Shown one piece after another: positions 17,735 through 41,632 of a DNA stretch of 64,000 nt. A program made the translations under genes and the position numbers. This DNA is from Blasia pusilla (lineage: Eukaryota). Each line of letters starts with the position of its first letter. Position 1 is the first letter of the stretch. The DNA lies in the NCBI GenBank assembly GCA_050084515.1, contig CM114271.1:28768001-28832000 (forward strand). The letters run 5' to 3'. The notes beneath the pieces were generated by a model, which had not been told where the DNA came from, ran no database searches, and saw nothing but the letters and a program-made list of their open reading frames with translations.

Positions 17735-18280
17735 CTGCAAACCGTCGGACTCTGACAAGTTGTTTGAGTCGCCACTGTTTTTGGAATGTTTTTGGCCGAA
17801 AGCAACTCGTCGGACTCCGACGATTTGCTCGACTGATCACTGGTTTAGGATCTTTTTGGCAGAAAGCAACTCGTCAGACTCCGACGAGTTGCTCGACTGA
17901 TCACTGGTTTAGGATGTTTTTGGCCGAAAGCAACTCGTCGGAGTCCGACGAGTTGCTCGACTCACTTCTGTTTTAGGATGTTTTTTGAAGAAAGCAACTC
18001 GTTGGAGTCCGACTGGTTGCTTGACTCGAAGCTGTTTTTGGATGTTTCTGGCTGAAAACAACCTGTCGAACTCCGACAGGTTGATATGTTCACTTTTCTC
18101 GCGAAAACCACTCTCTAAATACGGATAATCTGACAACCTGTCGGAGTCCGACGGGTTGAAACCAGGAAATCACAAATCTGAATGCAATCCGTCGGACTCC
18201 GATGGGTTGCAAAATTTAGGTCGTTACTTCCATTCTGACCATGAGTTGTGACGACCTGTGGGAGTCTGACGGGTTGCAGG
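17735..18280. repeat. Intronic palindrome array (copy C)
   Basis: GCAACTCGTCGGAGTCCGACGAGTTGC units at about 64-bp period. Confidence 0.9.
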
Positions 18281-19003: not shown

Positions 19004-20278
19004 TGTCGTATAGTAAAATCAACCAGTGTGTAAACTCCTTCGTCATTAAGTGTTAGATAGAGTTTCATTTGTATTAAGTAAATTGGCTTAGAAAAAGGAG
19101 ATTCTTATGTTTAAACCTCTTTATGGTGCCTCTTTTATGCGGGCCCAACTTTAGGAAAAGGAGGTAATAAATAAAAGATGACTTTATAAAAGTAAAGTAG
19201 TTGCTTTAATGAAAAGCAAAAGTAGTCTTGGTTGGTGGCTAGATTAGTTGGGGTAATTTGGAAAATATCATGTGGGTAAAAGAGGATATTTTGGAAGAGA
19301 TAAGAGGAAATCTACTTATGTCAAAATATGATTGGCTAAGCCTTGAGAGGAAGCGATGTGGCACAAGATAAGATAAGCTCTATTTCATACTCTTGTGGAT
19401 CCCTTGTGAGTATATAAATAGGAGGGACCTTCAAGGGTTCATCACCTTCTATTCCACATCTTGAGTCTCTCGTGTCTCTCTTGAGTGTATGGCTTTGGGA
19501 TTGCTTGCTCTTCCAATGAGAGTGGATCACCCTTCTTGGGAGAGTAACTTGACCATGGTCTATTCTTCGAGAGATTTCTAGAGTGTGGTGTGTGTGTGTG
19601 TGGGGATGAGAGGTTTTTCACCGTAGAGGATTTTAGTCATACTAAAATACCCGATGTTTTGGCTTGTTACTTCCCCAATGAGAGTGGATTACCCCTCTTG
19701 GGAGAATAACTCTGCCAAAACTCATTCTTGAGGAGAGTAGAGAATGTCTGTCAAGCATGGATAGGGGTGGAGCACGAGCTGTGCCCGACTTTCCTTTCCT
19801 CAATCCTTACCATGTCAAGGTACTCTTTGTAGATAGGCACTGGTTCACTCGCTATTTAGTTTATCACTTTGGGGAGGCATTCATGAACCAGGTCATGCAA
19901 TCTCCAACTCCGGTGATTCTTCCTATTGTCACATATGGAAGGACATAGGATTGTATTTTGTATGTCCTTATATAGCGATCCATGGATGTCAATAGGCCTG
20001 CTCAAGTAGGGTTTAACACTAGTTGTGCTGTCTTCCTCGTGTACAAGCGTAAAATAGTTTATAGGGATTTTATAGTTAGGAATTTTGGGGTCCGATGTTA
20101 CGAAGAAGTGATCGCCTCGGCACTTCCATTTGTGATACCTGTCGTGAGAGAATGGAGAGTGTACATCATAATTTTGTATTGAAAAATGAGAACTTATTAG
20201 AGAGTTCACCTTGCATCGACCGCATCTACCGCAGCTAGAAGGCCTGCCCTTGCTCGAAGAAAGACTCTCGACACGACA
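19004..20278 (+). repeat. 5' LTR (1275 bp) of the outer Ty3/gypsy element
   Basis: 6-bp inverted termini TGTCGT/ACGACA; TATATAAATA at about 19411. Confidence 0.85.
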
Positions 20279-20280
20279 AA

Positions 20281-20298
20281 TGGTGCTTCCACTGAGAG
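20281..20298 (+). other. Primer-binding site, probably tRNA-Thr(AGU)
   Basis: TGGTGCTTCCACTGAGAG lies 2 nt after the LTR. Its reverse complement resembles the 3' end of plant tRNA-Thr(AGU) as recalled from memory. Confidence 0.6.
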
Positions 20299-23200
20299 CT
20301 CTTTGAGGCGGTAGTTTGTGTTTGCAAGTTGGAGTCTTATCAAGATGACTACTTTTGGGAGTACTTCATCAATGGGAAGTGAGGGAGTTGAGGATCTTCT
20401 CCGAACTTTGACAACATTGTTGAGCCAACAAGGAGGAGTTCACATCGGAGAGCAAAGATCAACAAGGGCTCTCCAAGCGATTGTGAAGAAGTTGGGGAGA
20501 TTTGATGGAAGGAACATCACCAAGTATGTTCGAGAGTACGTCTGTGAGATGGAGGTAAACCGTGTATCCGAAGGTGATATGGTGTCAAGTTTTGAGTTAG
20601 CTGTAATACCAGAGATCCGTAGTCAAGTAAAGAAGTTGAGAGCAGAAAATCCAACCTCATGGGGAGGAGTACTGACGATTCTTTGAAAAGGAGAATTCTT
20701 CGATGATGATGTGGATCGGGTGACTAAGAGGAGTTTTCTAGAATGGAAAGAGCAACGTCCAGGGAAGGGAATGACTCCAAATGAGTTGTTTCGTGAGTTT
20801 GAGAAGCGGTTTTTTTAGCTTTCTCCTTCTGAAAGGGCTATCATGACCGTACGGATTATGTCGTAGAGTATGGTGTGCTGGTAGAGGCCATTCCTTATGT
20901 AGGACCGTAGTGGCTTGGTAGAGATGTGGTTCCATACATAGGGTTGGGGTTACTCACTTGGGGTGACTTTCCTAGTAGGGCCCGCTCTTGGTTGGAGGAT
21001 ATAAGGTGGCTTGCCCTCAAAAAACGATCAGTTCTTTGAGTTGAGCCTGTTGCGTTGGGAGTTAGCCTTGGTAGTGAGTAGAGCTCTTGGCTATGGTGTT
21101 TCCGCAAGCCGACCTGGATTCTCCCATCGTGGAGTGGGTTTGGCTCGATTGTATGTGATTGTAAACGTGTTTTATGACAAATGAGGTCTTTCACGGATTT
21201 CACTCAAAGAACCGGAGTAGATCGATAGTAGCTTCGATTGTAGATCAAGAGGGATCTGGTTAGGGTGATTGTGTACTCAGCCGTGGATGTTCGGGCTTGT
21301 TGCATATGTTGGAGGTGTGAATCAGGTGCGTGGTTGGTTGGGAAAGAAGCGCCTTGCTGAGAGCTTTCCAACGCGCTGTAGATCGCCGGATTTCGTCAAG
21401 GGAGTTGGAAGTTATCAAGCATTGAAGATTCTCGGTTCGTGTTCGGCGCTTTTCGATGTGGAGAGCTTGGAGTGCGGAAGTGTGTTGAAGTTCATCCAGA
21501 TCGGGTGAGAGGTTCCTGATGCTACTCGTATTGTAATCTCCTGTGAATCTATCTGCTCGAGTGTGTGGAGAGTTGCGGATTTCTACGTGCATGGAACTTG
21601 GCGGAAGCGCTGTCGGATTTGCGATTCTGGAGGTGTATGGACATCAAGTTTGTTTGATTCTTAGCTCGGAGTACAGAGCTCGGTTGTAGCTGATTTTTTG
21701 TGGAGAGATAGCTATGGTGGTCTATTGAATTCTGATCGAAACAGATTTGATTTCGGTCACGTATTTGTGAAGTAATTTCTGATCGAAATTTCGCAGACTA
21801 GCTCGAGGTCTGGCTATGGTGGACAGCGGATCGGAGGGGCTGGTTGGTTGGTGACTCGTTCATTTTTGGAGACGCCTATCCCATTGGGGGCACCCTGGTT
21901 GGACCTCTCTCCATAGCGAAGCATGGCGAAGCGTGGCGAACGGGGCATGTCTCGGCGTTTTGAGGCTTCGAGGCAACTCGTGGTAGCTCAAGCAGTGGGC
22001 GTGAGAGGCGGAGTAAGGAGCAAGGAGCAAGCAAGCAAGCTTGCTTGCTTGGGCGTGAGGCAATTTTTGCAGGATTTGGGATTTGAGTTTTGCATAACTA
22101 GTCACCCATCTTTGGGCTATTCTGCCTGGAGGACGCTTAACTGCTGAGTTCTTAACTATGCCAGTGTAGAGACTGTTGTAGCTCATTTGGTGCTGTTCGG
22201 AGATGTGTTAGGCGCTTTATGCATCTCAGGTTTTTGGTTGATGTACCTCTAGCGCATAGTACGGTGTAGCCTCTCCATGCAGGTGATATTTTCAGATGCT
22301 GCGAGTTCGACTAGTATGTCATCGACCCGCGGCGGAGTAGCTATTGCGTTAGAATTGTGTGGTGGGTTTTGTGGATTCAGAGGGCACCACGTTTGGTGGA
22401 TTGTGTTACCTTGATTTTCATTTGCGGTTGGAGGGTTGTCGTTGGACTTCAGAATCGGATCCCCTCCATCGTGCTTTTGCTTGCTTGCGCCCAATGTTAG
22501 GGTTGACGCTGATTTCAGAGTAGTGTTACTCTTGTGTGCTACTGATAGTGAGGCTGGAGTGATGACCAGTAGACCGTGGGAGGCTTCTTGTAGTGATGAG
22601 AGGTTAGATTGCCTACACCCATAGCTAGTAGAGCTACAATAGTAGAGCCACATCGCGTCACTTGGATAATTTGGTGGTGGTGCGGCATCGGCGTTGGTCA
22701 TCACTGTCGGGTGGTACGGTTGGGGACCGTGGTGCGGATAAAGTGGTGGTTTCACACGGAGTGGATTTAGGTATCGGTTCGACGGTTGATGAAGAGGAGG
22801 ACCAGGGTGTTCCAAACACCGAGTCTTCTACGTTGTTATCGAGTGTTGCAGCTCCATTGATTTGGGACATGGACGGTGGATATGGGGCCATGAAGGGCCC
22901 ACGACGATACTCAGGTGCAGTGGGCACCATTGAGTTGGAGGACTTCATGCAGGAGTTTGATACGTGGTGTGATATGCGGATGTTATGAACGCCACGTTGT
23001 TTACACCCTTCTTGGCTTGGAAGGGTTGTTTCAAAGACTTGGAAGGACCACCCATGGATGATTACCATGAGTTTAGGAAAGACCATGTTCTTTGAGATTG
23101 AGGCGTGAGACAATATTGGTCTCCAGGCTATGTGTCTATCACCCATGGTGGTATTGGTAGTAGTGCTCCTACTATGCCCGGCCCGGCCCGCGTTGAGTGG

Positions 23201-25509
23201 TGCAGTACGAGCCGGAGTGGGGGTACCAAAGTGGAGGTACTAGTGGGGGTACTAGTGGAGGTATTAATGCCCCACCATCGTTCAGCCCGATTTGCAGAGT
23301 TCTTCAAGAGGTTGAAGAAGAACTATCAAGGAGTGAAGACGGAGAAGTTGAGGAATCTTCAGGACTTTGAGCGAAAGGCGGTGAGAGTCTTCGTGAGGCA
23401 TACACGCGTATCGACGCTTGATTTCATTACCAGGGTGTGGCGAGGATCAGCGACCCGTTTTGGTATGGGATCTTGGACAGAGATTTGCGCCGTAGGGTGC
23501 GTGATGCTACTCTTATGAGTGATGATTCACCCACATTGACCCATGTGTTTGCTCTATCTCGAGAAGATTGAGCTTAACATGGTGAAGGAGAAAGTGGTGA
23601 CATCCGCATTCAAGAGGGGATACAACTACTACTTCTCGGGTTCAGCCGCCCACCTCACGATCTCGTAGTAGTGGTGGTGGTAGTAGTAGTGGGAGTCGTG
23701 GGGGGTACACGCGACCTCAATCAAGTCCTAGAGGGACATTTGTGCAGAGACCATTGCCTTCATTTGCTGCCCCGCAGCAAGGACAGTCATGTTGGACATG
23801 TGGAGGTGATCATGTTAGGAAGTTTTGTCCCCAAGAGGATGGGAGACGGACTTTGGAGGATGGGCCTCAGTCGGCCCCAACTCAGTGTGATCATTGCGGG
23901 AGACTAGGTCATCCTCGAGAGCGTTGCTTTGATCTCCATCCAGAGTTGAGATCAGGCCGTGGCCGTGGTGGAGTAGCTCCGAGAGGCCGAGGTGGTAGAG
24001 GTGGTAGGGGTGGTAGAGGTGGACCAGTGGTTGGAGAGCCTACGGTGGCTACCCCTACCACTACGACAGTCACTATGGTGCGGGATTGATCGATTGGAGC
24101 GAAGTTGGCTACTATGGTGGTATCCAAAGATAGATCGGTTCGGGAGCAGGGCTTCCACCTCTTATGGAGGAGATGATCTCTCTTATATGGCGAGTGCAAA
24201 GACAGTGAGGCATCGGTGCGATTTAGAGGAGCCACTCGAGCGTCGAGAGCCACGTGGTGCTCTTGTGGAGTTGGACGCCTGAGGGGTGAGGCCGGGAGGC
24301 GTGCTAGGCTTCCCAGTCATTCTTGTTGTCGAGGTGCTTAGGACTCCATCCATGGTTCCTCACGCAGCCTATTGAGCCGAGTGGGGATCGAGGCATCTAC
24401 ATCAGCGTGTAGTAGACACGGATGCAGATCAATGCAAAGATTGTGCGGATGGCAACTTCGGTGTTAGGATCCCCATTGTTTTCGGCCACGGAGTGATGGC
24501 TTTAGGAGTTGACTTAGCTCTGTATTTGATTAGCGCCACGTTGTGTGAACGGGGGTGTTATCTTTGCATGGTGTTGAGGTGGATGAGGGTGTTGCGGTGG
24601 AGCGACCCTCTATGTCGGGAGTAGCATTGAGTACCGGTGCTACTTGGCGAAAGCGTGGCGAAGATGGATGCATTACCAGCCCGGCCAGCCATTGATCGTG
24701 AGAGGCTTACACCTTGTGTATGTATGTTGGACAACCGAGTGGGATCTTCCGATTGGTAAGTCCTACAGGACAGGTGTATAGACCAGATAGAGTCTTGTTA
24801 GACTCTGGTGCCCAACCTTTGATGTTGGGAAAGGCGGCATGTATTGGTTTGGGTATTCGGAGGTCAGAGCTTGAGCCTTGCCCATTCCAGATTCAAACAT
24901 CACTTGGAGGAGCCAATGATAGGTCTCCATTCATGACACGAGAAAAGTTTTCTGTACAATTGAGACCAAATCATGCGACTGATAGCTCCCGGTTGGGAGT
25001 ATCTGCGGTAGTCACATCAGCCGAGTCGTATGATGTACTAGTTGGAGGAGCGATGATTGTACCGATGGGTTTTCAGATGGATTTCGGGTGAGACAGCGTC
25101 CCATAGACCAGGTTGGCAGTCCGAGGATGGACGTATGAGCCAAGTTCCTGTGAGATTTATTTCTGGGGCTCGACCAGGAGGGTCTTCCCCAACAGTGTTA
25201 GCATCTGTGGCTGGTTTTAGTGGAGTAGTCACTTGGCCAGGAGACTTTTTGGAGGGTAATGTTTCTGCTATGGATTCTCTGCGCATGAGGAGGTAGAGGA
25301 GGTCCCTACTTTTGCAGCGGTGGCATCCTCATCGTTGGATGTGCCACTTTGGAGTTCAGCGGTGCACTACGGCAGAGGTCGATCGCCTAGTGCGAGGAGG
25401 CTTGGTGTGAGGCTGTTATACCTCACGAGGAAGAGGAGGCCCCACGGCGGACTCCTACGCCTGGCTTGATTAGGTTATCCCCTTTGGATACTACACCCAT
25501 TGTATGGCA

Positions 25510-26460
25510 AGTATCCGCGGAGGGCATTTGTGTGTTAGATCTCTTTGGTGGGATTAGCACTGGTTTGGCGGCGATGTTGCAGGCGGTATTCGTGTGCGGA
25601 GATACGTGTATGTGGAGCGAGATGAGACGGCCGAGAGAGTCTCATCGACATATTGGTCGATTGATGCGGAGATATCTGAGTTGTTGCCGCCATCGGCTAT
25701 TCGTGGGTACCGGCGTGCTTTACCATCACACATTGCATTGTTGAGGCGCGCAGGACCTTGAGAGGTTGGTCCTGTGGATTTGGTGATTCTTTGGATGGCC
25801 ATGTCGAGGGGTCATACACGTGTTGCTCGTGGTGAGGGATTACATGACCCTAGGTCTCGATTGTTTTGGGAGATGTTACGGGTGTTACGACATCTTGAGT
25901 TCATCGAGCACGTTACTAGCTTACATTCTGGAGAATGTTCCATTGTTAGGTGACACTCGAACCGGATGATGGCGAGTGTTCATGAGGTGCGGTCTTGATT
26001 GACCAGCGGTGTTGTTGGATGCAACGCGAGTTGGCTCAGCGTGCACATCGTCCACGCTTGTGGTGGACAAACTTGTTGCCTAGGAGGTTCTCGTCAAGCA
26101 TATGATGCGGTCTGGCGGGATCCTCGCTTACAATGGATAGTATCTTGAATCTTGGCGACTTTCTCAAGTGGTGAGGGTTATTGATCGGTCACCCATGGCG
26201 GTGGTGAACCGTGTGGGCGACCTAGGATGGCACTACCCACATTTGTGAGTTTTCCGCGTCACATGCCTACGAGGAAGGTGGTCCGGGGGCTTGTATGGGA
26301 TTCTCATGTGCGGCAGTTGGTGGAGCCTAACGCTGATGAGAGAGAGCGTGCGATGGGATTTACTCTTGGCGTGGCGGTTGCTTCTATTTACGAGGCTTCA
26401 CGACGTCATGTGTTGGGTCGGCCATGGACTGGGAATTGTTTGACTTGGATTTTGAGTCTT
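25510..26460 (+). pseudogene. DNMT3-like C5-cytosine methyltransferase domain within pol
   Basis: Motif I VLDLFGGISTG; IV VDLVI..WPC.G (about 25775-25810); VI YILENVP (about 25922); VIII AHRPRLWWTNL (about 26043); IX ERERAMGF; X RRHVLG..MD. Confidence 0.85.
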
Positions 26461-29400
26461 GGTATGGCCCAAGCGTCGACTTTGGACTATGTCGTGGGTC
26501 TTCCACCCCTTGTAATGAGCTCGATGGCTAGGGGACGGTAGAGGCATCGGTGGGGCAAGGAGAGTAGTATTTTGCATCCTTGGAGTAAATGGGATGTAAT
26601 GGATGGGCATGTGGAGTTGGTTGCTCATGCTGGTGGAGGAGTTATTTGCTCAGATGATGGTGTAGCTAAGGGTGTATCATCTTGTGAGGGGATTGCGTAG
26701 CAGCCAATGGCATCGTCCTCTCCCTCTAGTGTGCCAATGGAGGAGACTTGGGAGCCATTACTTGGGCCCAAGCTTACGGGGGAGGTGAGAAACGACGCTG
26801 CCACGGTTCCTACGTGCTTATAGGAGTTGTTTTGCCTTTAGCATGAAAGAGTTGGGTTCTCTGGTTGGACCCGGTATACGGATTGATTTGGCTAGTGATA
26901 CGCCAATCTTCCGTCGTCCCTACCGATGTAGTGATATGGAGAGGACTTGATTGAGTAGGGCGTTGGATCTTTTGGAGGTGGATTAATGGAGTTGTTGCAT
27001 GGAGAGTATGCATCGCCCTTTGTCATGCTGCTAAAAAGGATATGCATGGCAACTACACGGATAGGCGGATGTGTGGAGATTACCGTCCTATCAATCGGCA
27101 AACCAAGGCGATAGGTATGCCATGCCTACACCGAGGAGATCTTTGATGTGGTGGGCGGCAAAGATTTTCAGTACTTTGGATCTTGGCGAATACCATCAAT
27201 TGCCGATTCGGAGAGTGACAAGGCCAAGACAACATTTTGGGGTGTCAACTCTCATGGCAAGGATTGTTTGTACCGGTGGAAATTCTTACCCTTTGGGTTG
27301 AAGAATGCACTGCCGAGTTTCAAAGAGTGATGGACGGGATCCTAGCGGGGTTGGATTTTGTTCGGTGTTACATTGATGATATCTTGGTGTTGAGAACACG
27401 GTGGAGGAGCATCGATACATTTGCAGATGGTGTTTGAGCGGTTGAAAGCTCATGGTCTACGTTGCATCCAGGAAAGTGTAAGTTCTTCCATGAGGATGTT
27501 GAGTACTTGGGTCATGTGATCTATCCGGTGGTTTGGGAGTTCAGCAAGCAAAGGTGGAGGCTATTGCACTTATTCGCGTCGATAGATGTGAGTAGAGTTC
27601 GAGCATTCATGGGATTGGCGAACTACTATCGGAGGTATGTGAAGGGATTTAGTGCTATGGCAAAGCCTTTGAACCAATTGCTGAAATCAGATCAAGAGTG
27701 GCACTGGGGAGATGATTAGGAGAGAGCTTTTTGGAGCTTAAGGCCAGTTGGTGGCGGCGCCTATCTTGAGGAGACCTATCGAGGGCGCCCATTTCGATTT
27801 AACCGATTGGAGTAGGTTGGGACTTGGAGCGGTGTTGACACAACATGATGATGAGCACATGGAGTTTGTGGTGGCCTATGCAAGTCGTTCGAATAATGCA
27901 AATGAGTCGCGCTATAGTTCATATGAGGGAGAGTGCTTGGCAAGAGTGTGGGTTGTGGCACACTTTAGGTGTTACTTGTTTGGCACACAATTTACCCTTG
28001 TTCATGATCACCGGCCCGCTCAAGTGGTTGATGGAGTCGGACAAGCTTACTGGGGAAGCTTGCACGGTGGGCTCTTATCTTACAGAGTATGACTTCCAGG
28101 TGGTACATAGACCTGGAGTTGCCAACCTTGATGCTGATGGGTTGAGTAGGAACTCATGTACTAGCCAAGAGGATACAACTAGGGCTAGATGGCATGGCGA
28201 GGTTGATGAGGAGATGGTGCCAGGTTGGCATGCATCCGCCTTTTTATGTTGGTTAGGGGTGGACTCTAGTATGGAGGACCACATGATATCTTATTCTAGT
28301 CGAGGGTAGATGGCACCTTCTCAGATCCTAAGGTTGGAGATGGTGGTACGGATCAGCTTGATATTCATGATGATGCGTTGGTGTTGGAGTTCCTACAGAC
28401 CAGTAGGGTGCTAGGCATAGTGAGTGCCAAGGAGCGAGACCGTGTTCTTCAACGTGCTAAGAGGTATCGATTGGAGGAAACACATATTCTCCGCGTGTGG
28501 GAGGATGGTAGAGTACGAGTAGTGCCACATTTGGCTCAGAGAGAGCGCATTGTGCGACATGCCCATGAGGAGTTGGGACATTTTGGGGTAAAGCGTACTT
28601 ATAGCTTACTCCTTGGTGAGTATTGGTGGCGTGGCATGCATACTCAGGTGCAGCAGTTGGTGTCACGTTGTATGGTTTGTGACCGGGTGAGGGCATCATT
28701 TAATGCCCCTACACCACAATTACACCCCTTGCCTATTATGGGGTTGGGTTACCGTTGGAGTGTGGACTTTGCGGGACGTTATCGTTGATTCATACAACAT
28801 CATCGATATGTGTTGGTGATGGTGGAGCACTTTTCCAAGTGGATTGAGTTGGTGGCATTACGGACAAGGCAAGTGAGGGAATGGCGTATCGTTTCGGATA
28901 GAGTGCTTAGTCATTTTGGTGCACCAGTGAAGTCTTGACCGACCAGGGTATAGAGTTTGAGGTGAGTTTGGTCTTGTGTGACAAGGCGTTGATTGATCAT
29001 CGGACCACGTCTCGAGATCATCCAGGCGGATGGTTTGGCTGGCGTGTGGTTGAGGCGGTGAAGAGGGCATTGCGCAAGTATGGCCTCTGAAGGGCATCTT
29101 GAGACAGGATATTCGGTTGCCATGGTTAGCCATGGGGTATAGGTTCGATCGCCAAGCATCCTTGGCTTCCTTCTCACCTTATTTTTCATTATACGGCCGA
29201 GATCCGGACTTGCCGGCAAGCAAAGCAATTGTCGGGAGTCTAGTGAGGTGGTGAACCTTGATGACCCAGAGATGTGGATGAGGGTGTGTTCTCGGCGGGC
29301 GGAGCTCTTTCGGAGAGTTATGCCATGACCTTTGAGAATCTTGCCATTGCTCAACATAGGGATACGTTGCGGTATGCAACCATTCGGGTGGAGGTTATCG

Positions 29401-29646
29401 ACCATCGATTCAGTAGGTTCCATGTGGGGGACTATGTCTATTTTAGCAGATTGCCCGACAACGTTGGATGTGGCCAGCCGCACTATTTTACGAAAGTGCG
29501 TGAGGTGTTAGCTTCTAGAGTTCTCATGTTGGAGGGTCGTGATGGAGTTGTTTGGAAGGACCATGTGCGTAATTGTGCGCCATGTCATCTTCCAAATGTG
29601 GATGGTCTTATTGACCCAAGCTTAGCCATGATACGTGCTAGCTTGA

Positions 29647-29781
29647 GGTGCATGTTGTGTGGGTGCTTGTAATGGTATGTTGGTGTGTGATCGGTGTTCT
29701 AGGGGTTGGCACATGATGTGTTTGACTCACGTTTGGATGTTGTTCCTCTTTGGAAGGTGGGTTTGTCCTCGATGTACTTAG
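29647..29781 (+). pseudogene. PHD finger at the integrase C-terminus
   Basis: CMLCG...MLVCDRCSRGWHMMCL...WVCPRC* (C4HC3) across frameshifts. Confidence 0.8.
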
Positions 29782-32700
29782 AGAGGTAGATGACTTGATC
29801 TTTGCATGATATGGATTACAGAGATGTGCGACTAACGATGGCGCAACCTAGCACCCGGGATTCGGGCACCCAAGAAGGTGTATAGCATGTAGTAGATGTA
29901 TAGGGCTACTTGGGGGAGTTAGAGGACCTAACCTTGATTAGGGGGGGTTGTGGTACACTTGCGTTTGTGGATACTCGTCTATGTTATGTATGTATGTGCG
30001 TATGGTATGTCGGCGATGTATGTTGTATGGCGATGAGGATTCGTGACGACAAGCTTGTCATGACCATACGGATTATGTCGTAGAGTATGGTGTCTTTGGT
30101 AGAGGCCATTCCTTGTGTAGGACCGTAGTGGCTTGGTAGAGATGTGGTTCCATACATAGGGTTGGGGTTACTCACTTGGGGTGACTTTCCTAGTAGGGCC
30201 CGCTCTTAGGTTGAGGATATAAGGTGGCTTGCCCTCAAAGAAACGATCAGTTCTTTGAGTTTAGCCTGCTATGCGTTGGGAGTTAGCCTTGGTAGTGAGT
30301 AGAGCTCTTGGCTATGGTGTTTCCCGCAAGCTTCGACCTGGATTCTCCCATCGTGGAGTGGGTTTGGCTCGTTTGTATGTGATTGTAAACGTGTTTTATG
30401 ATAGTAAGTCTTTCACGGATTTCAGTTGTGGTACACTTGCGTTTGTGGATACTCTCGTCTATGTTATGTATGTATGTGCATATGGTATGTCAGTGATGTA
30501 TGTTGTATGACGATGTGGATTCGCATGACAGGGCAACTCTAGACTTGAGGAAAACCGAGTTATTCCTTGAGGCGGCAGATGAGAATTTGGAGGACAAGCT
30601 TTTCATAATGTTGGCGGACAAGAATGAAGAAGGAGATGTCAGCACTAATTGGAAGAAAGTGGAAGAAGTTGTTGCTATCCTCACAAAGCAAAGTCGAAGT
30701 AGAGGTAGAACCACAATATTTAAGTCGGAGGTACCAATTTCAAATCCATTGCCTAAGCCCATGCCAGCAAAGCTTGAAGATTCTACCATTGATGAGTTGG
30801 TGAAAGGTTTGAGAGAGTTGAGAGTAGAAATGGCTGAGCTTAAACTTGATAGGAATCCTAGTGTTGGTGCTCCTTCAATAAGTAAGAACTTTGTGAGAAG
30901 ATGTATATGGTGTGATAGTGTTGAGCATCAACGTCGAGAATATGAGGAATTTTCAGAAGCTCTTAGAAATGGAATAGTAAACTTCAAAGATGGGAAGATT
31001 CATTCAACGCAGACTGGTATGCCGTTGAATACCAACTTTGGTAGAGGAGGTATGAAAGGCTTAGTGAGAAGTCAAGTAGGAGTTGCCACTACGACATTAG
31101 ATTCTTATACCTTTTCAGTAAAAATAGAAGCGCCTATTGTATCTGTAGCTAAAAGTGAATCATTACAATTTCCTCGAGAAGTGATGATACAAGGGGCAGA
31201 GACTATCCGTCATCTGACTGGATGGGATGATCCAGTGGAAGTTGGGTGTGTTAAAGCATACCTAGCACAAGAGAAACATGTGAGTTGGCAAGATGCTAGT
31301 GTGGAGGAGAAGAGGAGACGCGACAATGATGGTGCTGATTTTGAGGAAGATGCAAGAAGAGCGAGGACTGTAAGAAGGAAAGGGCAACCAGAGGCGCAAC
31401 CGTCAAGAGAAGAAGGGCCTTCTACATCTGAATTTATGATGGATTCTCAAATGAAAGAAGGTGGAATGAAGGAGAACGAATTGAGGTCTCCTCAGAAGAC
31501 CAAGGGTAAGACTCCTACATACAAGTTTGCGATCGATATCGAGACAAGCACCTAATTTAAAGGAGATTCTTGAGGAGAGGATTTTGGATGCGAAAATAGA
31601 GTTTTCTTTGAGGGAAGTCTTGGGCATAGCCAAACGTGACTTTCATGAGTTGATCATAGATGTGATCAAAAGGAAGAGGCAGATGACTACAGATATGGTG
31701 ATGGTGAGAGCTTTGGATACTGACATCACAGAAGAAGAAGATGAAGAGCTTTGCCAAGTGTTTGGACAAAACCTTGACTTACGCGGAAAAGAGGCGAGAG
31801 TAGGAGAAGCCTTGAGAGAACAAGGTGAAGACAGGCATAATGGTGGACACTATTCTCGATCATATTGGGCGCGTGCAACGACGGAGGCTAGAGTTCGACT
31901 TGGCTCTCTTTAAGAATCAGTTTTGGCTCTCGTTGATCATGGTTCAGAGATCAACATCATGTCGCGAAGTGTGTACGACAAAGGGATATGGCCAATTGAT
32001 ACAGGGCATGGATGGGTACTACGAGCGACTAACAACCAAAAAGGTGAACTCTATGGTGCTTGTCCATCCGTCAAAACTCGTATCGGAGATGTGTTGATTG
32101 AGCAAAATTTCTTTGTTCAGAATAGAGCTGCTTATCCTATGATTCTTGGGCAACCTTACATCACAGCATCTAGAATGGAGACCAAAGTCATGGATGATGG
32201 GTCTCATTATGCCCGTATTAGAAGTCAGGATGGAACAAGATCAGTTCAATTCCCTTCTTTGTCATTTGAGTAGGTCATGAAAGGAATAGAGAGAAGTTGA
32301 GAGATGGTCCTATGAAGGTAGAGAAAGAGTTTTCGGATTTTTAGTTAGCATTCCTATAGAGCGGGAATATGGGGGTGCAGAGAAAAGAAAGAGTCTTCCG
32401 CTAGTAGAGGGGGAAGAATCATATATGTTTAGGTGTGGGTTTTCTCAATGTTTTTCTTCGTGGTCTAGTAGATTCCAAATGATGAAAGAAATGAATGAAA
32501 AGAAAAGACGTTTTATGAAAAAAAAAGGAGGGTTTGTTAAAATGTGAGGGTGTTCTATTAGATGAAGAGTTCATTAGTGGGATGTATGAAGAAGAGGGTT
32601 TTGGAGATAGTCTTGAAGAGGTGTTTACCCAGATGAACATCGATTCGCTGGATACAAGTGTGATTACAATTCACTCGCGTGAGTTGCATGAAGAGATATC

Positions 32701-33182
32701 AAGGTTCATGGAAGGAGAAAATGAAAATGAATATATGGAGAAGGAAGCGGATGGGCATGGGTTTGAGTCTGACGAACATCCCATGGAGGCACAAGTGCAC
32801 ACAAAATACAAGACAGTGGCCCGGAAGGTGAAACCAATGGCTACTCAACTACCAGAGGGTTGTGGGAGACAAGTAGAACGTGCATCAATGGAGCCAAGTC
32901 TGCGGGATATCAAGAAGATAGGACATAAGTTCACAGAAGAGATGCTAGATCGTCTGCAAATCGGAGGGGGTGAGTTTCTCACAGAAATTGAAAGAAAATG
33001 CTTTCGGGAGATGTTAAGGAGACATGGTAAGGCTTTCTCTTTTACAACACAAGAAATTGGTTGTGTAGACACGAGTGTGGTGGCACCGATGGTAATTTTC
33101 ACAGTTCCACATGTGCCTTGGGATTTGAAACCCATACCAGTACCATGAGCTATGATTCCCAAGCTGATTGAGTTATTGAGTT

Positions 33183-35578
33183 CCGGAGGAAGCAAACCTG
33201 GAGAGTGCTGAAGATTTTGAACTTTGGCTGGATGACATGCGGGACGAGCCCATAAAAAACCCAAGTTTGAGGACGATGTTCAAGGATTGCATCCTCCCTC
33301 AGTCAGACCTTGATGAAGAAATAGAGGCAGAAAAAAGGGATTTCGCAAAGAAGAAGCGAGATCTTCAAGAGCAGGCGGCCGATGCATCTCGACTAAGAGC
33401 TGCCCAATGCATGGTGTTCAGGAACCTCGTCGATTGTAAGAATGCAGGTACATGGCAAAAAATACCGGCAGCCTGCAAATTGTGGGCTTCTCCACTGATG
33501 GAGAGACATTTTCCATGTACGACATGGGGATGGCTCAAAGCATGTCTGATTGGGAGGTGGAGAATTGCCCGATTTGGCTGGACTTCAACGACCCTGAGGA
33601 CATAACTGAGAAAGATCTACGCCTACTCTATGATGCAGTGGCGGCAGGTAGGGACGATATCCCCAATTTTGTGCAACCTAAAGACTTTTTCGAAGGAGAT
33701 GCGGAGGAGCAAGCCCTCGAGACAGCGGAGTTGGTGTCCAAGGTCATCACTGCCAAGGACAAATCTACAACGGGTCTCAAAGCCAAGGCGAGGGGATAGA
33801 AGAATTTCGAGGCCAAGTCTTCCCAAAAAGAGGTTGAAAATTCAAGGCGAGAGCCGGAATCATCCGGATGAGCGGGGAGAGAGGGTCGGACCAGGTCCTC
33901 CGCAAAAAAAACTCCACCAGAGTCTGAGGTCATAGAGACCCCAACAAGCCAACCGCAGACTCAAGAGAAGCAAAAGCGAGAGGCGCCAGGGTTTTCCCAA
34001 GGAGATGACCAGGATGTGGAATACACTCCATCATCCTTGAGAAGACATAGAGAAACAACGACCTAGACAAGCGTCATCCTTCACTGCACGAATCTTCAGG
34101 ATGAGCCGAAAAGTTTCAGTTCCCAAGCGTCGACATCCGCCATTGAAAAATTGACAACGTTGGGACGGAAACTTCAACAAAACGGCCACGCTCCCTGGAC
34201 GGTCCATGGGGAGATCGAAGAGGTGGCGGTGGATATCCTCGTCGCTGATTTGCCCTCGAGGTTGCGCTTGTGGGACGAGAATCCGTCCGACAGGGTCCCA
34301 GACTGGAATGTCCCTCTTTCTTATGACCGGATCGCGCTTCTGTTTTCCTTTGCAGACGCTTATCTTAGTGACAGGGGCTTTTTCTTAGTTTTGACTGGAG
34401 GGAGCGAGGACGAGCTCTTCAACCTCCAGTGCGTCAAGAGGTCCCTAAAGTGGAGGACGGCGCAATTGTGGATCATCAAGAACGAGTATCCACTCCGATC
34501 CGCGACAAGTCAAATTCGGGTAAGGGCTCTAAATTTGTATCCAAATTGTCTTTCTCCAATGGGTTGCATCTCTGCATACAACCCGTCGGATTGTTTGAGC
34601 TGGGTCTGTTTGCAATCCGTCTGAAAGTGACGGGTTGCAAATTTACCGCAAGTCTCCATTGGGTGAATGCAACCCGTCGGAACCCGACGGGTTGCAAGTG
34701 CTAATGCTTTTGCAATTTTCTAGAATGATGCAACCCGTCTGAAAGTGACGGGTTGCTCTAAACCAGAAACCTGTCGCCTTCCGATAGGTTGCTCATGGAC
34801 AAAAAAATCACAAGACACTTGTAAAACAACCTGTCGGACTCCGACAGGTTGCTCCAATGTTAGGATTATAAAGGAGTTCTTTGGGGACATGTTGCACATT
34901 ATGTCGCCATACTGAGAGTAGACGAGTGGCCAAGTAGCTCTTTGTTGTTGCTGACATTGTTTCCAACGTGCTTCTTTACAGATGGACCACTCCTATGTTT
35001 ACTGCTTTGTTCGGCCCGAGCAAAACTTCCAGGTGTTTAAGATCCTGGATCCTGTGTATCCATGCTCCGATGGGTACAACTTAGATAGTTTATACAATTC
35101 CCCCCTGGGAATTTACATGCAAGACGGTACCCCTTTACTTGGAGGAAGGGAAAAGTCACCAGCCCTGATGCAAACGCTCATCGAGCTCTGCTCAAGGCCG
35201 GGTGACTTAGTGCTCGACTTAGTGGGCCTTTCAGGGGCGAGTATCAGAGGCGCCTGGTAGAGTGGCAGGAACATTCTCTGCCTTGAGGGAAGGCAGCAAC
35301 TGTTTGACCTTTGCAAGGAGGCAAAGGCAGATATTACGACATGCTAGTTGGGGCGTACAACTCTCCTCGGCCGAAAGCTCGGTTCGGACCCACCATTGGT
35401 AGTGACACCATCGTCATTTCCCACGATTCTGAAAATCGGGAGGGCAAGGCCGACAGTAATCTTGGAAGAGCTCTCGGATGATGACGAGTGAGTTCAAAGA
35501 ACTCAAGGACCCAGCTTGACTGCAGCGTTTGGAGTAGGGATTTATTTGATGACGAGGCAAAAGATTTCATAGAATAGA
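33183..35578 (+). pseudogene. Cargo gene copy C, 3' part: beta-class N4C/N6A DNA methyltransferase-like domain (intron 34520-34981)
   Basis: Motifs in beta-class order: VDILVADLPS (IV), LFSFADAYLSDRGFFLV, WIIK; then after a phase-0 GT-AG intron DHSYVYCF and REKSPALMQTLIELCSRPGDLVLDLVGLSGASIRGAW*SGRNILCLE (X-I-II). Confidence 0.75.
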
Positions 35579-39085: not shown

Positions 39086-41632
39086 TGTGGAAAACTGCTA
39101 AACAAGCATGATTGGTGGAAAACGGCTCTCACACACACACACCACCATGGAGAATGAAATTTGCAATGAGAGAATGAGTGGAGGCTGGTCCTCTTCTCAA
39201 TTATATAGGGTATGTACAAGCAACCATAACCTTACCCTTAACCATAGTCTCGAGTTAGATTAACAGTGATTAACTAACCCTAGTTAAGATAATCATACTT
39301 AAGTAACTAACCAAGATTAAACTTCCCTACTTCGTGTGAGTACCAAATGTAGCAGTTTAGGTGTCTCATGAGCTTGACTGTAACTCAACCTTCAATACTT
39401 CCCCTCGAGCTCATATCGATATCTCTAACGCCTAAATCCTTTCTAAAGATCTCAAACTTATCTCTAGACAATGCCTTTGTAAAGATGTCAGCAATTTGCT
39501 GATCTGTACCTATATACACAAGATCAATTTCTCCTGCAAGCACTTTCTCTCTGATAAAATAATAGTGCACCTCAACATGCTTTGTACGAGCATGAAACAC
39601 AAGGTTATTAGCAAGTTTGATGCTACTAATATTGTCTGCATATATTACACTAGGTCCTAAGTTACTAACACCAATCTCAACAAGTAATCGATGAAGCCAC
39701 ACCGCCTCACATGCTGTATTGGTTGCTCCTCTGTACAGAGCCTCTGTTGAAGATAAAGCAATTATAGCTTGCTTCTTTGAAGCCCAACTTATAGCTGCGC
39801 TTCCCAAAGTAAATGAATAACCAGACGTGGAGTGTTGATCAGACACGCTTCCTGCCCAATCATCATCTGAGAATCCCTGTAATTGAAAACTCGGAGAAGG
39901 TTCAAATTGAAGCCCAAATTGAATAGAGAATTTCACATACCGCATAATCCTCCTCACAGCATAAAGGTGAGGTTTTTGAGGTGCTTGCATAAACTGGCTC
40001 ACTAGGCCAACAACATAGCTCAAATCTGGTCTGGTTATAGTTAGATAGATCAAACTTCCAACCATGCGCCTGTACATATAAGAATCTGCAAGCAGCTCTC
40101 CTTTATCCACTCTTAGCTTCACGCTTTGGTCCAACGATGTAGAGATTGGCTTACAAGCCGTCATACCATATTTTGAAAGAAAATGAAGAGCATATTGTCG
40201 TTGTAGTAACCACATGCTCTCTCTAACCTTGACAAAATCAATACCAAGGAAGTACTTGAGTTCTCCCAAGTCCTTCATATCAAATTCTGCTTATAACTTA
40301 AGCTTGACTTCTTGTACCATTTCTTCAGTACTCCCAGTAATCAAGAGATCGTCAACATACAACACAATGAGAAGTGTATGATCTTGTCCTCTCAAGACAT
40401 ATAATGAGGAGTCAGAATCACATACCCTAAAATCCAACTCTTGTAGGACATATGTAATCTTGCCATACCAAGCTCTTAGAGCTTGTTTGAGCCTGTATAG
40501 AGCTTTCTTCAACCTGCATACGCGAAATGGAAATTTGGGATGCTCATATCCATGTGGTTGAGTCATATATACCTCCTCGTATAGATCTCCATTCAAGAAG
40601 GCATTCTTGACGTCCATGTAATGTAATCTCCACTTCTTACTTACTACAACTACAACCACTGTTCTCGTAGTCGCCATCTTTCCAACAGGGCTAAATGTTT
40701 CCTCATACCATATTGTTGTGCATAGCCCTTAGCCACCAATCTCGCTTTGTATCTGTTAATTGTACCATCTTGATTGCGCTTGATTTTGTAAACCCATTTG
40801 CAACCAATAGCTTCCTTACCGGAAGGTATATCAACCAGGTCCCATGTTTGTTGATGTCTTAATGCAGCAAGCTCTTCCTCCATAGCTTCAATCCATGTGG
40901 TGACTTGGTCTTCAAAGTGGAATTTGGCGGAACGATATTGGGACTTGAAACCGATGGCACTCCGCGAGCATCTACAAAAGCAATTTCTCAACATTATTTA
41001 GAGCACCAAAATCGAGTTTTATCAACTTCATGTTAATCCTATGCTTGTATATTGTGAACAAGGATACATACTCGCGGGGATCTCCACGTTCTTACGTCAT
41101 ATTATCGCACGACATAGAACTGGGTCTCATAGGCTAGGAATTGAGGAAGGATGATGATTTAATATTGATAGAAGTGAACGAATTTGTAGGTTATGTGACA
41201 GAGAAAATATTGAGGATGAAGAGCATGTGTTTGTTACATGTCCAAGGTACGAAGAGATTAGACTAGCTCATAAAATAGATGTGGAGAATTTCTATTCTTT
41301 ACTACAGCTAGTGCCTTATGATTTAGGTAGTTATATTAGAGATGTAATTATTCATCGCTCAAGTGCTCTAGGCAGTAGCTAGGAAAGGGTCTTTAGGATC
41401 TTTTTCAAGGTGAGTGAATGAATGACTTGTAATGTATTTTTCAGCCTTTTAACCCTTTGGGTCCCACGGGCTTGACCTATTTACCATTTACCATTCGGCT
41501 TTACTCGCAGCTTCTTCAAAACAACTCGGCTGCTGCTCTTGAAGGGTAGTCATCATATATGCATGATGTGTCGCAAGGAAACCATCATTTATGAATCTAT
41601 GAATTGGATGCGTAACTCTACTTGATCTACGA
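39086..41632 (-). mobile_element. Ty1/copia retrotransposon, 3' half (RT-RNase H, PPT, 3' LTR 39397->39086)
   Basis: WVYKIK...YKARLVAKGY, MDVKNAFLNG, LYVDDLL, RTKHVEVHY; PPT GAGGGGAAG adjacent to the LTR; same family as 60731-63745. Confidence 0.9.
40897..41494 (+). mobile_element. 5'-truncated LINE (RTEX/L2-like C-terminal CCHC finger) inserted in Copia, with a TTTACCA-repeat tail
   Basis: IARHRTGSHRLGIEEG...RICRLCDRENIEDEEHVFVTCPRYEEIR; tail TATTTACCATTTACCATT. The second Copia copy is contiguous across this site (62421-62440). Confidence 0.75.

What the first reader, a model, noticed from the sequence alone, without database searches (positions are those of the whole stretch)
25510..26460. 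DNMT3-like cytosine methyltransferase embedded between protease and RT
All main C5-MTase motifs (LFGG, PC, ENV, RxR, IX, X) are present in order, and AHRPRLWWTNL resembles DNMT3 AHRARYFWGNL. Retrotransposon-borne DNMTs are known from Symbiodinium and the charophyte Klebsormidium. An instance in an apparent land plant would extend this and suggests self-methylation of the cDNA.
Basis: partly seen in the sequence, partly recalled or inferred. Interest (0 to 1): 0.82.

Follow-up and report, generated by a model that had tools for sequence, protein, structure and literature searches.

The report
Decayed retrotransposon carrying DNMT3-like methyltransferase
This is a broken copy of a plant jumping gene whose own polyprotein includes a DNA-methylating enzyme domain like animal DNMT3, a kind described from one green alga and found here to have many relatives in liverwort and moss genomes.

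Summary
Window 25469-26460 (+) encodes a C5 cytosine methyltransferase domain. Motifs I, IV (GWPC), VI (ENV), VIII (RAHRPRLWWTN) and X stand in the unpermuted order, between the protease and the RT of a Ty3/Gypsy-type element (20841-30523). It can be read only across 17-21 frameshifts and 1 stop, and the whole pol is broken in the same way. Read that way, it is 72-74% identical to Marchantia polymorpha proteins that carry gag, protease, DNMT and RT in one ORF. A family profile and an AlphaFold model both hit DNMT3A/3B/3C first (E 1e-19), ahead of DRM and bacterial methylases. Named relatives come from Marchantia, Calypogeia and Sphagnum, and a second domain order occurs in green algae. The element has DIRS-like split repeats (A-internal-B-A-B). 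Independent copies share them, and the published Klebsormidium KnitGypsy-Dnmt3 is described with the same structure. It is therefore a new member of a known kind. Land-plant members already sit unremarked in public proteomes, and I found no paper that describes them. This copy is dead, or misassembled: its excess of indels is odd. Methylation of the element's own cDNA remains an inference.

The parts
20841..21202 (+). Terminal repeat A1 (LTR-like; probably begins about 20838, TA for TG, and ends ...TTTCA)
   Evidence: 93.8% identical to 30058-30424: 14 mismatches, 6 gap openings in 369 columns. 71-74% alike to repeat A of metagenome loci L028 and L036.
21203..21212 (+). Conserved CTCAAAGAAC directly after A1 (primer-binding-site position)
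   Evidence: The same ten bases follow A1 in the window, L028 and L036. The PBS function is inferred.
22869..24156 (+). gag with two CCHC zinc knuckles (23790-23828, 23886-23927), broken
   Evidence: Frameshift-aware alignment to Marchantia P0006 residues 1-420: 55-69% identity, 9 frameshifts, 2 stops. Knuckle coordinates.
24157..25286 (+). Protease region (LLDSGAQ active-site motif 24795-24815), broken
   Evidence: 65.8% identity to P0006 residues 421-800, 13 frameshifts. Motif. Relatives P0283 and P0293 carry Asp-protease Pfam families.
25469..26460 (+). DNMT3-like C5 cytosine methyltransferase domain (the finding), 17 frameshifts + 1 stop
   Evidence: motifs; DNMT3 best by profile and by fold; sister to Marchantia P0314, SH-aLRT 95.
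27045..28111 (+). Reverse transcriptase + RNase H, broken
   Evidence: 84.4% identity to Marchantia P0314 RT-RH, 12 frameshifts, 1 stop. Pfam RT_RNaseH E 8.3e-22 on 27742-28089.
28522..29040 (+). Integrase (H2C2 zinc domain about 28534-28695; DDE core)
   Evidence: Pfam Integrase_H2C2 E 6.9e-17; rve E 0.0022, below cutoff. 54% identity to the P0283 integrase.
29043..29775 (+). Integrase C-terminal extension ending in a PHD finger (about 29665-29775)
   Evidence: Pfam PHD E 0.003, below cutoff, on 29647-29778. 49.8% identity to the P0283 C-terminus. Clear PHD hits in relatives, E 1e-5 to 7.5e-13.
29938..29946 (+). Purine run (TTAGGGGGGG) directly upstream of B1 (polypurine-tract position)
   Evidence: Read. 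AGGGGGG also precedes B1 in L028 and L036. Function inferred.
29947..30043 (+). Short repeat B1
   Evidence: 92.9% identical to 30425-30523.
30058..30424 (+). Terminal repeat A2
   Evidence: Pairs with A1.
30425..30523 (+). Short repeat B2, abutting A2; end of the element
   Evidence: 78-80% alike to repeat B of L028 and L036.

Best explanation
Window 20841-30523 is one decayed copy of a Ty3/Gypsy-type retrotransposon family. Its polyprotein reads gag(CCHC)-protease-DNMT3-like methyltransferase-RT-RNase H-integrase-PHD, and it is bounded by split direct repeats (A-internal-B-A-B). This is the same kind of element as KnitGypsy-Dnmt3 of Klebsormidium nitens. Its nearest named relatives are in liverworts and Sphagnum. 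SHOWN: the domain, its DNMT3 affinity, its place in pol, its conservation across copies and hosts, and that this copy cannot make the protein as assembled. INFERRED for intact family members (my odds about 0.4): the methyltransferase is translated within Pol and travels with RT and integrase in the particle or pre-integration complex. There it methylates the element's own newly made cDNA, or the freshly integrated copy, de novo. The insertion then arrives already carrying a host-like methylation mark. The C-terminal PHD finger is inferred to read histone tails for targeting.
For: Domain and motif order. Relatives: 45 hits to the 118-aa piece, of which 17 are named and all 17 are bryophytes (10 Marchantia, 3 Calypogeia, 4 Sphagnum); 17 of the 45 carry PF00145. 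Marchantia proteins P0004-P0006 and P0008 align colinearly to 22869-27110. Single-ORF relatives have DNMT upstream of RT: 15 of 103 proteins where both domains were located, for example P0171 and P0149. DNMT3 affinity. Selection: identity to Marchantia is 72-74% in the DNMT, against 69% in gag, 66% in the protease region and 84% in RT-RH. Across 15 metagenome copies the median dN/dS is 0.52, and 101 of 104 pairs with dS>0.05 are below 1. Catalytic residues (GWPC, ENV, RxR) are invariant or nearly invariant in 19 sequences. The split repeats are shared with L028 and L036 (complete), L015 and L018 (B-A-B) and L002 (A...A, where the contig ends). The Fig. 4c legend of de Mendoza et al. 2018 (PMC5890265; passages read) says KnitGypsy-Dnmt3 has the repeat structure of a DIRS element with Gypsy domains.
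Against: No Klebsormidium sequence could be compared, and none appeared among the named hits. The domain order of KnitGypsy-Dnmt3 is in a figure I could not see. My tree has only two fish DNMT3 as outgroup and no plant DNMT3 or DRM, so placement inside the DNMT3 clade rests on profile and fold ranking. Pfam PF00145 matches only about positions 49-157 of 324 in relatives, in 10 of 14 scanned (E 6e-9 to 3.5e-6). It matches none of the window's own pieces. Activity is unproven: in yeast KnitGypsy-Dnmt3 gave no methylation, which the authors call inconclusive. A dN/dS of 0.5 is weak constraint, diluted by neutral decay after insertion.
Confidence: 0.85

Rival explanations
1. Most of the frameshifts are assembly or polishing errors in a very high-copy repeat. 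On this reading the real copy at this locus is much less broken, perhaps only a few stops from intact.
For: The decay spectrum is odd: 21 frameshifts against 1 stop in 1.35 kb. In 34 close metagenome copies the same stretch mostly keeps its 1005-nt length and carries stops: 20 of 34 loci keep the 1005-nt length, 19 of them with 1-10 stops and 1 (L012) with none. The repeat pairs A1/A2 and B1/B2 of the window differ by 7 gap openings and 19 mismatches. Seven such pairs in other copies show 1 gap opening and 107 mismatches. In an independent run of the same coded organism (X9), the contigs differ from the window at 11 of the 12 listed indel sites and hold the majority of depth at 9 of them; 10 of the 12 sites coincide with 9 of my 21 frameshift positions. 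The best holder has only 65% of the stretch's sampled words.
Against: Other elements in the same window read cleanly, for example Copia RT 61751-62365, which matches RVT_2 over 195 residues in one frame at E 1.6e-55. In run X1 over 90% of depth agrees with the window at 11 of the 12 listed sites. Contigs of a multi-copy family cannot be assigned to this locus.
Confidence: 0.45
2. The methyltransferase is a host DNMT3 gene fragment that lies next to transposon sequence by chance (a nested insertion or a chimeric assembly), not part of the element.
For: The window is a nest of transposons, and this element itself sits inside another one.
Against: The same gag-protease-DNMT-RT order is found in single ORFs from several hosts. 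The DNMT lies between the element's own repeats in the window, L028 and L036. There are no intron-like interruptions.
Confidence: 0.02
3. It is a bacterial or phage type C5 methylase: contamination, or a recent capture from prokaryotes.
For: Some relatives are labelled 'site-specific DNA-cytosine methylase' or carry names of bacterial metagenome bins (Obscuribacterales, Minisyncoccia). Two of the three best protein-atlas feature rows shown are phage clusters.
Against: Profile and fold both rank DNMT3 far above M.HhaI and M.HaeIII (1e-19 against 1e-7). The labelled proteins also carry RT, RNase H, integrase and PHD, so they are eukaryotic elements in mis-binned contigs. The neighbouring transposons look streptophyte.
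Confidence: 0.02
4. The family's DNMT works, but not on its own cDNA. It might methylate host chromatin around insertion sites or in trans, methylate RNA, or serve a non-catalytic role such as DNA binding or multimerisation in the particle.
For: The yeast test of the Klebsormidium domain was negative. The module sits in two different places in pol, protease-DNMT-RT and RNase H-DNMT-integrase, so no fixed neighbour is required. The PHD finger suggests a chromatin-level action.
Against: The catalytic Cys, ENV and RxR are conserved, which argues for catalysis. The SymbioDIRS-Dnmt3 domains methylate CG de novo in yeast.
Confidence: 0.25

Closest known systems
KnitGypsy-Dnmt3 of Klebsormidium nitens (de Mendoza et al. 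2018, Nat Commun 9:1341, PMC5890265)
   Same: A Gypsy-type pol with DDE integrase. An unpermuted DNMT3-like domain lies inside the Pol ORF. The repeat structure is DIRS-like. Copies are under purifying selection (the paper reports Ka/Ks < 0.2; here median 0.52 on decayed copies).
   Different: The host here groups with liverwort and Sphagnum sequences, not a charophyte alga. No direct sequence comparison was possible. The domain order and any PHD finger in the Klebsormidium element are unknown to me, because the figure and PDF supplements were not readable.
Green-algal relatives with the other domain order (e.g. Monoraphidium neglectum MNEG_11595, Haematococcus lacustris QJQ45_029518; public proteins, no paper found)
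   Same: The same DNMT family (33-43% identity to the Marchantia domain), the same integrase and the same C-terminal PHD.
   Different: In these the DNMT lies between RNase H and integrase: 88 of 103 proteins with both domains located. Their DNMTs form a separate group in the tree: 74 rows at SH-aLRT 81, against 14 rows at 85.
SymbioDIRS-Dnmt3 of Symbiodinium (same paper)
   Same: A DNMT3-like domain in Pol and an A-coding-B-A-B repeat layout. De novo CG methylation was shown in yeast.
   Different: These are tyrosine-recombinase (DIRS) elements of dinoflagellates, regarded by the authors as an independent acquisition.
Host DNMT3A/3B/3C (animals), plant DNMT3 (Physcomitrium PpDNMT3b, PMC6453930) and DRM
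   Same: The catalytic fold and motifs. DNMT3A/B are the best structural and profile matches.
   Different: About 20-23% identity. There are no PWWP or ADD domains. The domain is not permuted as it is in DRM. It is expressed as part of a retrotransposon polyprotein.
EpiLTRs and chromoviruses (bioRxiv 10.64898/2026.05.21.726589; chromovirus comparison from my own knowledge)
   Same: LTR elements that combine DNA-modifying and chromatin-reading modules. A reader domain sits at the integrase C-terminus.
   Different: EpiLTR DNMTs are sister to DNMT4 and come with an adenine methylase and a chromodomain. Here the set is DNMT3-like plus PHD.

Membership tests
C5 cytosine DNA methyltransferase (Pfam PF00145) | Motifs I, IV (PC), VI (ENV), VIII (RxR) and X present | tested here: met
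   for the window. GW, E-N and other columns are invariant; the catalytic C and the two R are nearly invariant (>=90%) in 19 relatives. PF00145 above cutoff in 10 of 14 relatives scanned.
C5 cytosine DNA methyltransferase (Pfam PF00145) | An open reading frame able to give the enzyme (this copy) | tested here: not met
   17 frameshifts and 1 stop in the domain. Pfam finds nothing on the 12 separate pieces. The breaks may be partly technical.
DNMT3 class | Closer to DNMT3 than to DNMT1, DNMT2, DRM or bacterial enzymes | tested here: met
   Profile against PDB: the 29 best sequences are all DNMT3A/B/C; DRM 4e-11 to 3.5e-7; HhaI 3.5e-7; DNMT2 0.056; DNMT1 not among the 56 listed. Foldseek: all 33 rows listed down to rank 50 are DNMT3A/B/C.
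DNMT3 class | Unpermuted motif order (unlike DRM) | tested here: met
   Coordinates rise I < IV < VI < VIII < X.
DNMT3 class | Placement inside the DNMT3 clade in a tree with plant DNMT3, DRM and other classes | not tested
The tree has only two fish DNMT3 as outgroup.
Gypsy-DNMT3 retrotransposons (KnitGypsy-Dnmt3 kind) | Gypsy-type RT-RNase H and DDE integrase in the same element as the DNMT | tested here: met
   for the window. Single-ORF relatives.
Gypsy-DNMT3 retrotransposons (KnitGypsy-Dnmt3 kind) | DIRS-like split direct repeats (A-coding-B-A-B) | tested here: met
   Window. L028 and L036 complete; L015 and L018 B-A-B. Paper's legend.
Gypsy-DNMT3 retrotransposons (KnitGypsy-Dnmt3 kind) | Sequence kinship with the Klebsormidium copies | not testable with these tools
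   No Klebsormidium protein among the named hits (only the best 120 of 217 are listed). The paper's sequences are not in a form I may use.
Gypsy-DNMT3 retrotransposons (KnitGypsy-Dnmt3 kind) | De novo methyltransferase activity | not testable with these tools
   Needs a bench assay. The published yeast test of the Klebsormidium domain was inconclusive.

The most novel reading that the evidence does not exclude
Gypsy elements with split direct repeats, a DNMT3-like methyltransferase and a PHD finger may be an old lineage spread across the green plants, from chlorophyte algae to bryophytes. During its history the methyltransferase module moved within pol, from RNase H-DNMT-integrase to protease-DNMT-RT or the reverse. 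On this reading the lineage persists at very high copy number in at least one land plant. Intact members would then still write cytosine methylation on their own DNA, and so contribute to bryophyte methylomes.
Probability: 0.3. Interest if true: 0.7.

Novelty: new member of a known kind. Interest (0 to 1): 0.5.

Why it matters
Retrotransposons that carry the enzyme normally used to silence them are a paradox. So far they are documented for one charophyte alga and for dinoflagellates. This window and its relatives show the Gypsy-DNMT3 kind in land-plant lineages with good genetics, including Marchantia. In the window's organism it is at very high copy number: 28,928 contigs of one run laid on 1.4 kb. 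That makes the open question testable in a tractable plant: what does the element gain from methylating DNA? The two domain orders and the conserved split repeats on an integrase-bearing element also bear on how such elements replicate and exchange modules. The window's own copy adds nothing functional, because it is a relic.

Tried and rejected
- Pfam on 46 stop-to-stop pieces of the element gave no methylase hit. This is uninformative because the pieces are too short.
- The listing of cluster members on 10 proteins returned no organism names.
- Sequencing runs: no RNA holder is listed, and four rows marked 'RNA?' are guesses. The X11 contigs cover most of the stretch, but I do not count them as evidence of expression.
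Identity of the X-masked window DNMT to liverwort and Sphagnum proteins is similar (47-66% among named hits, up to 69% among unnamed ones; X counted as mismatch) and does not tell them apart.
- The first dN/dS run included L002, whose 993-nt match is not in register. I dropped it and reran with 15 loci.
- Target-site duplication: none was recognisable at 20840/30524.
- Literature: searches found no paper describing a Gypsy-DNMT3 element in Marchantia, Sphagnum or any land plant. Six Marchantia gene ids gave 0 papers. Later papers speak only of 'streptophytes' and cite the 2018 work.
- The species table of the 2018 survey lists Physcomitrella and Selaginella but not Marchantia or Sphagnum. The one readable supplement of PMC12344493 names neither.
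- PDF supplements of PMC5890265 and all figures were not readable, and they may show the Klebsormidium domain order.

Full report
WHAT IS THERE. Translating 25300-26800 in three frames shows the methyltransferase motifs scattered over all three frames. Pfam on the 12 stop-to-stop pieces of this stretch finds nothing. I wrote a frameshift-aware protein-to-DNA alignment and ran it against Marchantia polymorpha protein P0006 (Mp_4g09160). It gives 293 identities in 439 aligned residues over 25308-26661, at the price of 21 frameshifts and 1 stop. The catalytic domain maps to 25469-26460 at 73.6% identity, with 17 frameshifts and 1 stop. Motif coordinates rise in the canonical order: I 25535, IV GWPC 25793, VI ENV 25922, VIII RAHRPRLWWTN 26040, X 26401.

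THE ELEMENT.
- Direct repeats 20841-21202 and 30058-30424 are 93.8% alike and bound the unit. A second, short repeat occurs at 29947-30043 and again at 30425-30523, directly after the 3' copy.
- Between the repeats, colinear with relatives, lie gag with two CCHC knuckles, protease (LLDSGAQ), the DNMT, RT-RNase H (Pfam 8.3e-22), integrase (H2C2 6.9e-17) and a weak PHD finger (E 0.003).
- The whole polyprotein is broken. There are 43 frameshifts and 3 stops against P0006 over 22869-26661, and 36 frameshifts and 8 stops against P0314 over 25008-28210.
- The element sits inside another transposon, whose gag-like frames continue on both sides.
- The rest of the window is also transposons: two Copia and another RT. 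A Copia RT looks streptophyte in the protein atlas.

RELATIVES.
- The only long in-frame piece (26185-26538) finds 45 proteins. 17 are named and all 17 come from bryophytes: 10 Marchantia, 3 Calypogeia fissa, 4 Sphagnum. 17 of the 45 carry PF00145. The representative library gives 179 hits at E<=1e-3.
- Profile searches with an alignment of 19 domains (A1) give 91 longer proteins and 217 near-length ones, of which the best 120 are listed. These add Marchantia paleacea and the green algae Monoraphidium and Haematococcus.
- I located DNMT, RT and integrase in the 384 proteins held at that point. 15 have the DNMT upstream of RT, as in the window; they include single ORFs of 2138-2358 aa. 88 have RT-RNase H-DNMT-integrase(-PHD). 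27 show only DNMT before integrase. 244 could not be typed.
- A tree was built from 90 rows: 87 representatives plus the window read with X at every break and two fish DNMT3. The representatives were reached from 185 domains of at least 270 aa, cut to 142 at 80% identity and to 87 at 58%.
- The tree puts the window next to Marchantia P0314 (SH-aLRT 95). All first-order proteins except the long-branched P0298 fall in a 14-row group (support 85). The second order falls in a 74-row group (support 81). Neither support is strong.

DNMT3 OR NOT. The A1 profile against all PDB sequences lists 56 at E<=1. The first 29 are DNMT3A, 3B or 3C (1.5e-19 to 2.5e-14), then DRM-type plant enzymes (4e-11 to 3.5e-7), M.HhaI (3.5e-7), M.HaeIII and DNMT2 (0.056). 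DNMT1 is not listed. The alignment pairs the family's AHRxRxxWTNL with DNMT3A's AHRARYFWGNL, and its ERERAMGF...LG with TEMERVFGFP...LGRSWSVPV. AlphaFold on the Marchantia domain with A1 gives pLDDT 92.5 and pTM 0.92. Foldseek lists 33 rows down to rank 50, and all are DNMT3A/B/C chains, with E from 3e-19 and TM up to 0.83 on the target. Fish DNMT3 proteins also appear as weak sequence hits. A proper class-level tree with plant DNMT3 and DRM could not be made.

IS THE DOMAIN KEPT BY SELECTION? Between the window and Marchantia the DNMT is as conserved as the core parts: 72-74%, against gag 69%, protease region 66% and RT-RH 84%. A scan of metagenome contigs found 259 relatives among 598 pattern matches, and 80 loci were kept. 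Of the 34 closest, 4 have an open DNMT frame (L002, L012, L024, L026). 20 keep the exact 1005-nt length, 19 of them with 1-10 stops and 1 (L012) open. The rest have shifted lengths. For 15 gap-free loci the median dN/dS is 0.52, range 0.29-1.07, and 101 of 104 pairs with dS>0.05 are below 1. This is modest constraint, as expected if part of the divergence is decay after insertion. Of their 42 stop codons, 33 are single C-to-T or G-to-A changes; CGA to TGA alone accounts for 14. That is the signature expected of deaminated methylcytosine.

SPLIT REPEATS. The layout A-internal-B-A-B is not an accident of this copy.
- L028 and L036 show it completely. L015 and L018 show B-A-B. L002 shows A...A up to the contig end.
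- The window's A and B are 71-80% alike to those of L028 and L036. All three share a purine run before B1 and CTCAAAGAAC after A1, while the flanks differ.
- De Mendoza et al. 2018 describe KnitGypsy-Dnmt3 as having the repeat structure of a DIRS element with Gypsy domains.
This is the strongest link I could make to the published family without its sequences.

IS THIS COPY REALLY SO BROKEN? The excess of indels is peculiar to the window. Its repeat pairs differ by 7 gap openings and 19 mismatches. Seven repeat pairs in other copies show 1 gap opening and 107 mismatches. Public contigs laid on 25300-26700 show a very abundant family: 28,928 contigs from run X1 and 348 from X9. Twelve indel differences are listed and 31 more are not shown. 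Ten of the twelve fall on 9 of my 21 frameshift positions. In X9, which has the same coded organism but another study, the contigs differ from the window at 11 of the 12 sites and hold most of the depth at 9. In X1, which is probably the source sample, over 90% of the depth agrees with the window at 11 of 12. Other transposons in the window read cleanly. I cannot decide between a truly indel-riddled relic and a poorly resolved consensus of a high-copy repeat. Either way the family's domain is in frame elsewhere.

HOW IT PROBABLY WORKS. SHOWN: a DNMT3-type catalytic domain with intact catalytic residues is translated within Pol in intact relatives. INFERRED: it is packaged with RT and integrase and methylates the element's cDNA or the new insertion (about 0.4), and the PHD finger reads histone tails. 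Rivals are action on host chromatin or RNA, or a non-catalytic role (about 0.25), and a passenger without function (about 0.1). The published yeast assays showed de novo CG methylation for the dinoflagellate DIRS domains, but nothing conclusive for the Klebsormidium Gypsy domain.

NOVELTY. The kind is published. I read passages of PMC5890265, PMC12344493, PMC6453930, PMC5784723, PMC9033089 and the 2026 bioRxiv preprint, and two spreadsheet supplements. I found no description of a land-plant member. The 2018 survey did not include Marchantia or Sphagnum. The proteins themselves are already public, as 'hypothetical' Marchantia, Calypogeia and Sphagnum entries. Verdict: a real feature, correctly interpreted; a new member of a known kind; of moderate interest.

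Noticed in passing
window 20841-21202, 29947-30043, 30058-30424, 30425-30523; L028 1676-2017 and 10238-10805; L036 5882-6225 and 14528-15096: An integrase-bearing Gypsy-type element is bounded by split direct repeats (A-internal-B-A-B), a layout usual for tyrosine-recombinase DIRS/Ngaro/PAT elements. It is conserved across copies, with a purine run before B1 and CTCAAAGAAC after A1. How a DDE-integrase element replicates with such ends is unexplained.
   Followed up: partly
proteins (e.g. P0171, P0283 versus P0100, P0234): The same DNMT family sits in two places in pol. Protease-DNMT-RT is found in the bryophyte-type proteins and some unnamed ones. RNase H-DNMT-integrase-PHD is found in Monoraphidium, Haematococcus and most metagenome proteins. 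The DNMT tree roughly follows the two orders.
   Followed up: partly
window 29647-29778; relatives: A PHD finger lies at the C-terminal end of the integrase. It is weak in the window (E 0.003) and clear in relatives (E 1e-5 to 7.5e-13). It stands where chromoviruses carry a chromodomain.
   Followed up: partly
window 20841-30523 versus L-loci: This copy differs from its relatives mainly by 1-2 base indels, about one per 64 bases, with hardly any stops. Metagenome copies decay by stops with almost no indels. This may be an assembly artefact confined to a very high-copy repeat.
   Followed up: partly
L001-L021 DNMT matches: Stop codons in decayed copies are mostly C-to-T or G-to-A changes (33 of 42; CGA to TGA 14). 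This fits deamination of methylated cytosines in these elements.
   Followed up: yes
window 20315-20840 and 30524-about 34000: The DNMT element is nested in another transposon. Its gag-like reading frames (20315-20686; 30497-31555 and onward) flank it on both sides and have no Pfam match. No target-site duplication was recognisable.
   Followed up: partly
window 20001-34000: There is a strong strand asymmetry: GC skew +0.22 to +0.30, and T over A through about 30 kb, the AT skew turning positive at 30-34 kb. The GC skew spans both the DNMT element and the transposon around it.
   Followed up: no
window 17780-18099: A tandem array with a 64-base period: four overlapping 128-nt copies, 69-100% alike.
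   Followed up: no
window 39388-40728 (-), 61751-63008 (-), 59639-60790 (+): Two Copia-type elements (RVT_2 E 9e-39 and 1.6e-55; SH3_retrovirus E 4e-32) and a further RVT_1 reverse transcriptase. No host gene was recognised anywhere in the window.
   Followed up: no
P0243, P0324: Proteins of this eukaryotic retrotransposon family are filed under bacterial metagenome bins (Minisyncoccia, Candidatus Obscuribacterales). The contigs are probably mis-binned.
   Followed up: no
P0181 and its cluster: A relative of the DNMT domain occurs with PHD and PCIF1_WW domains and without RT or integrase in the 1053-aa representative. Cluster members reach 4799 aa. It was not examined.
   Followed up: no
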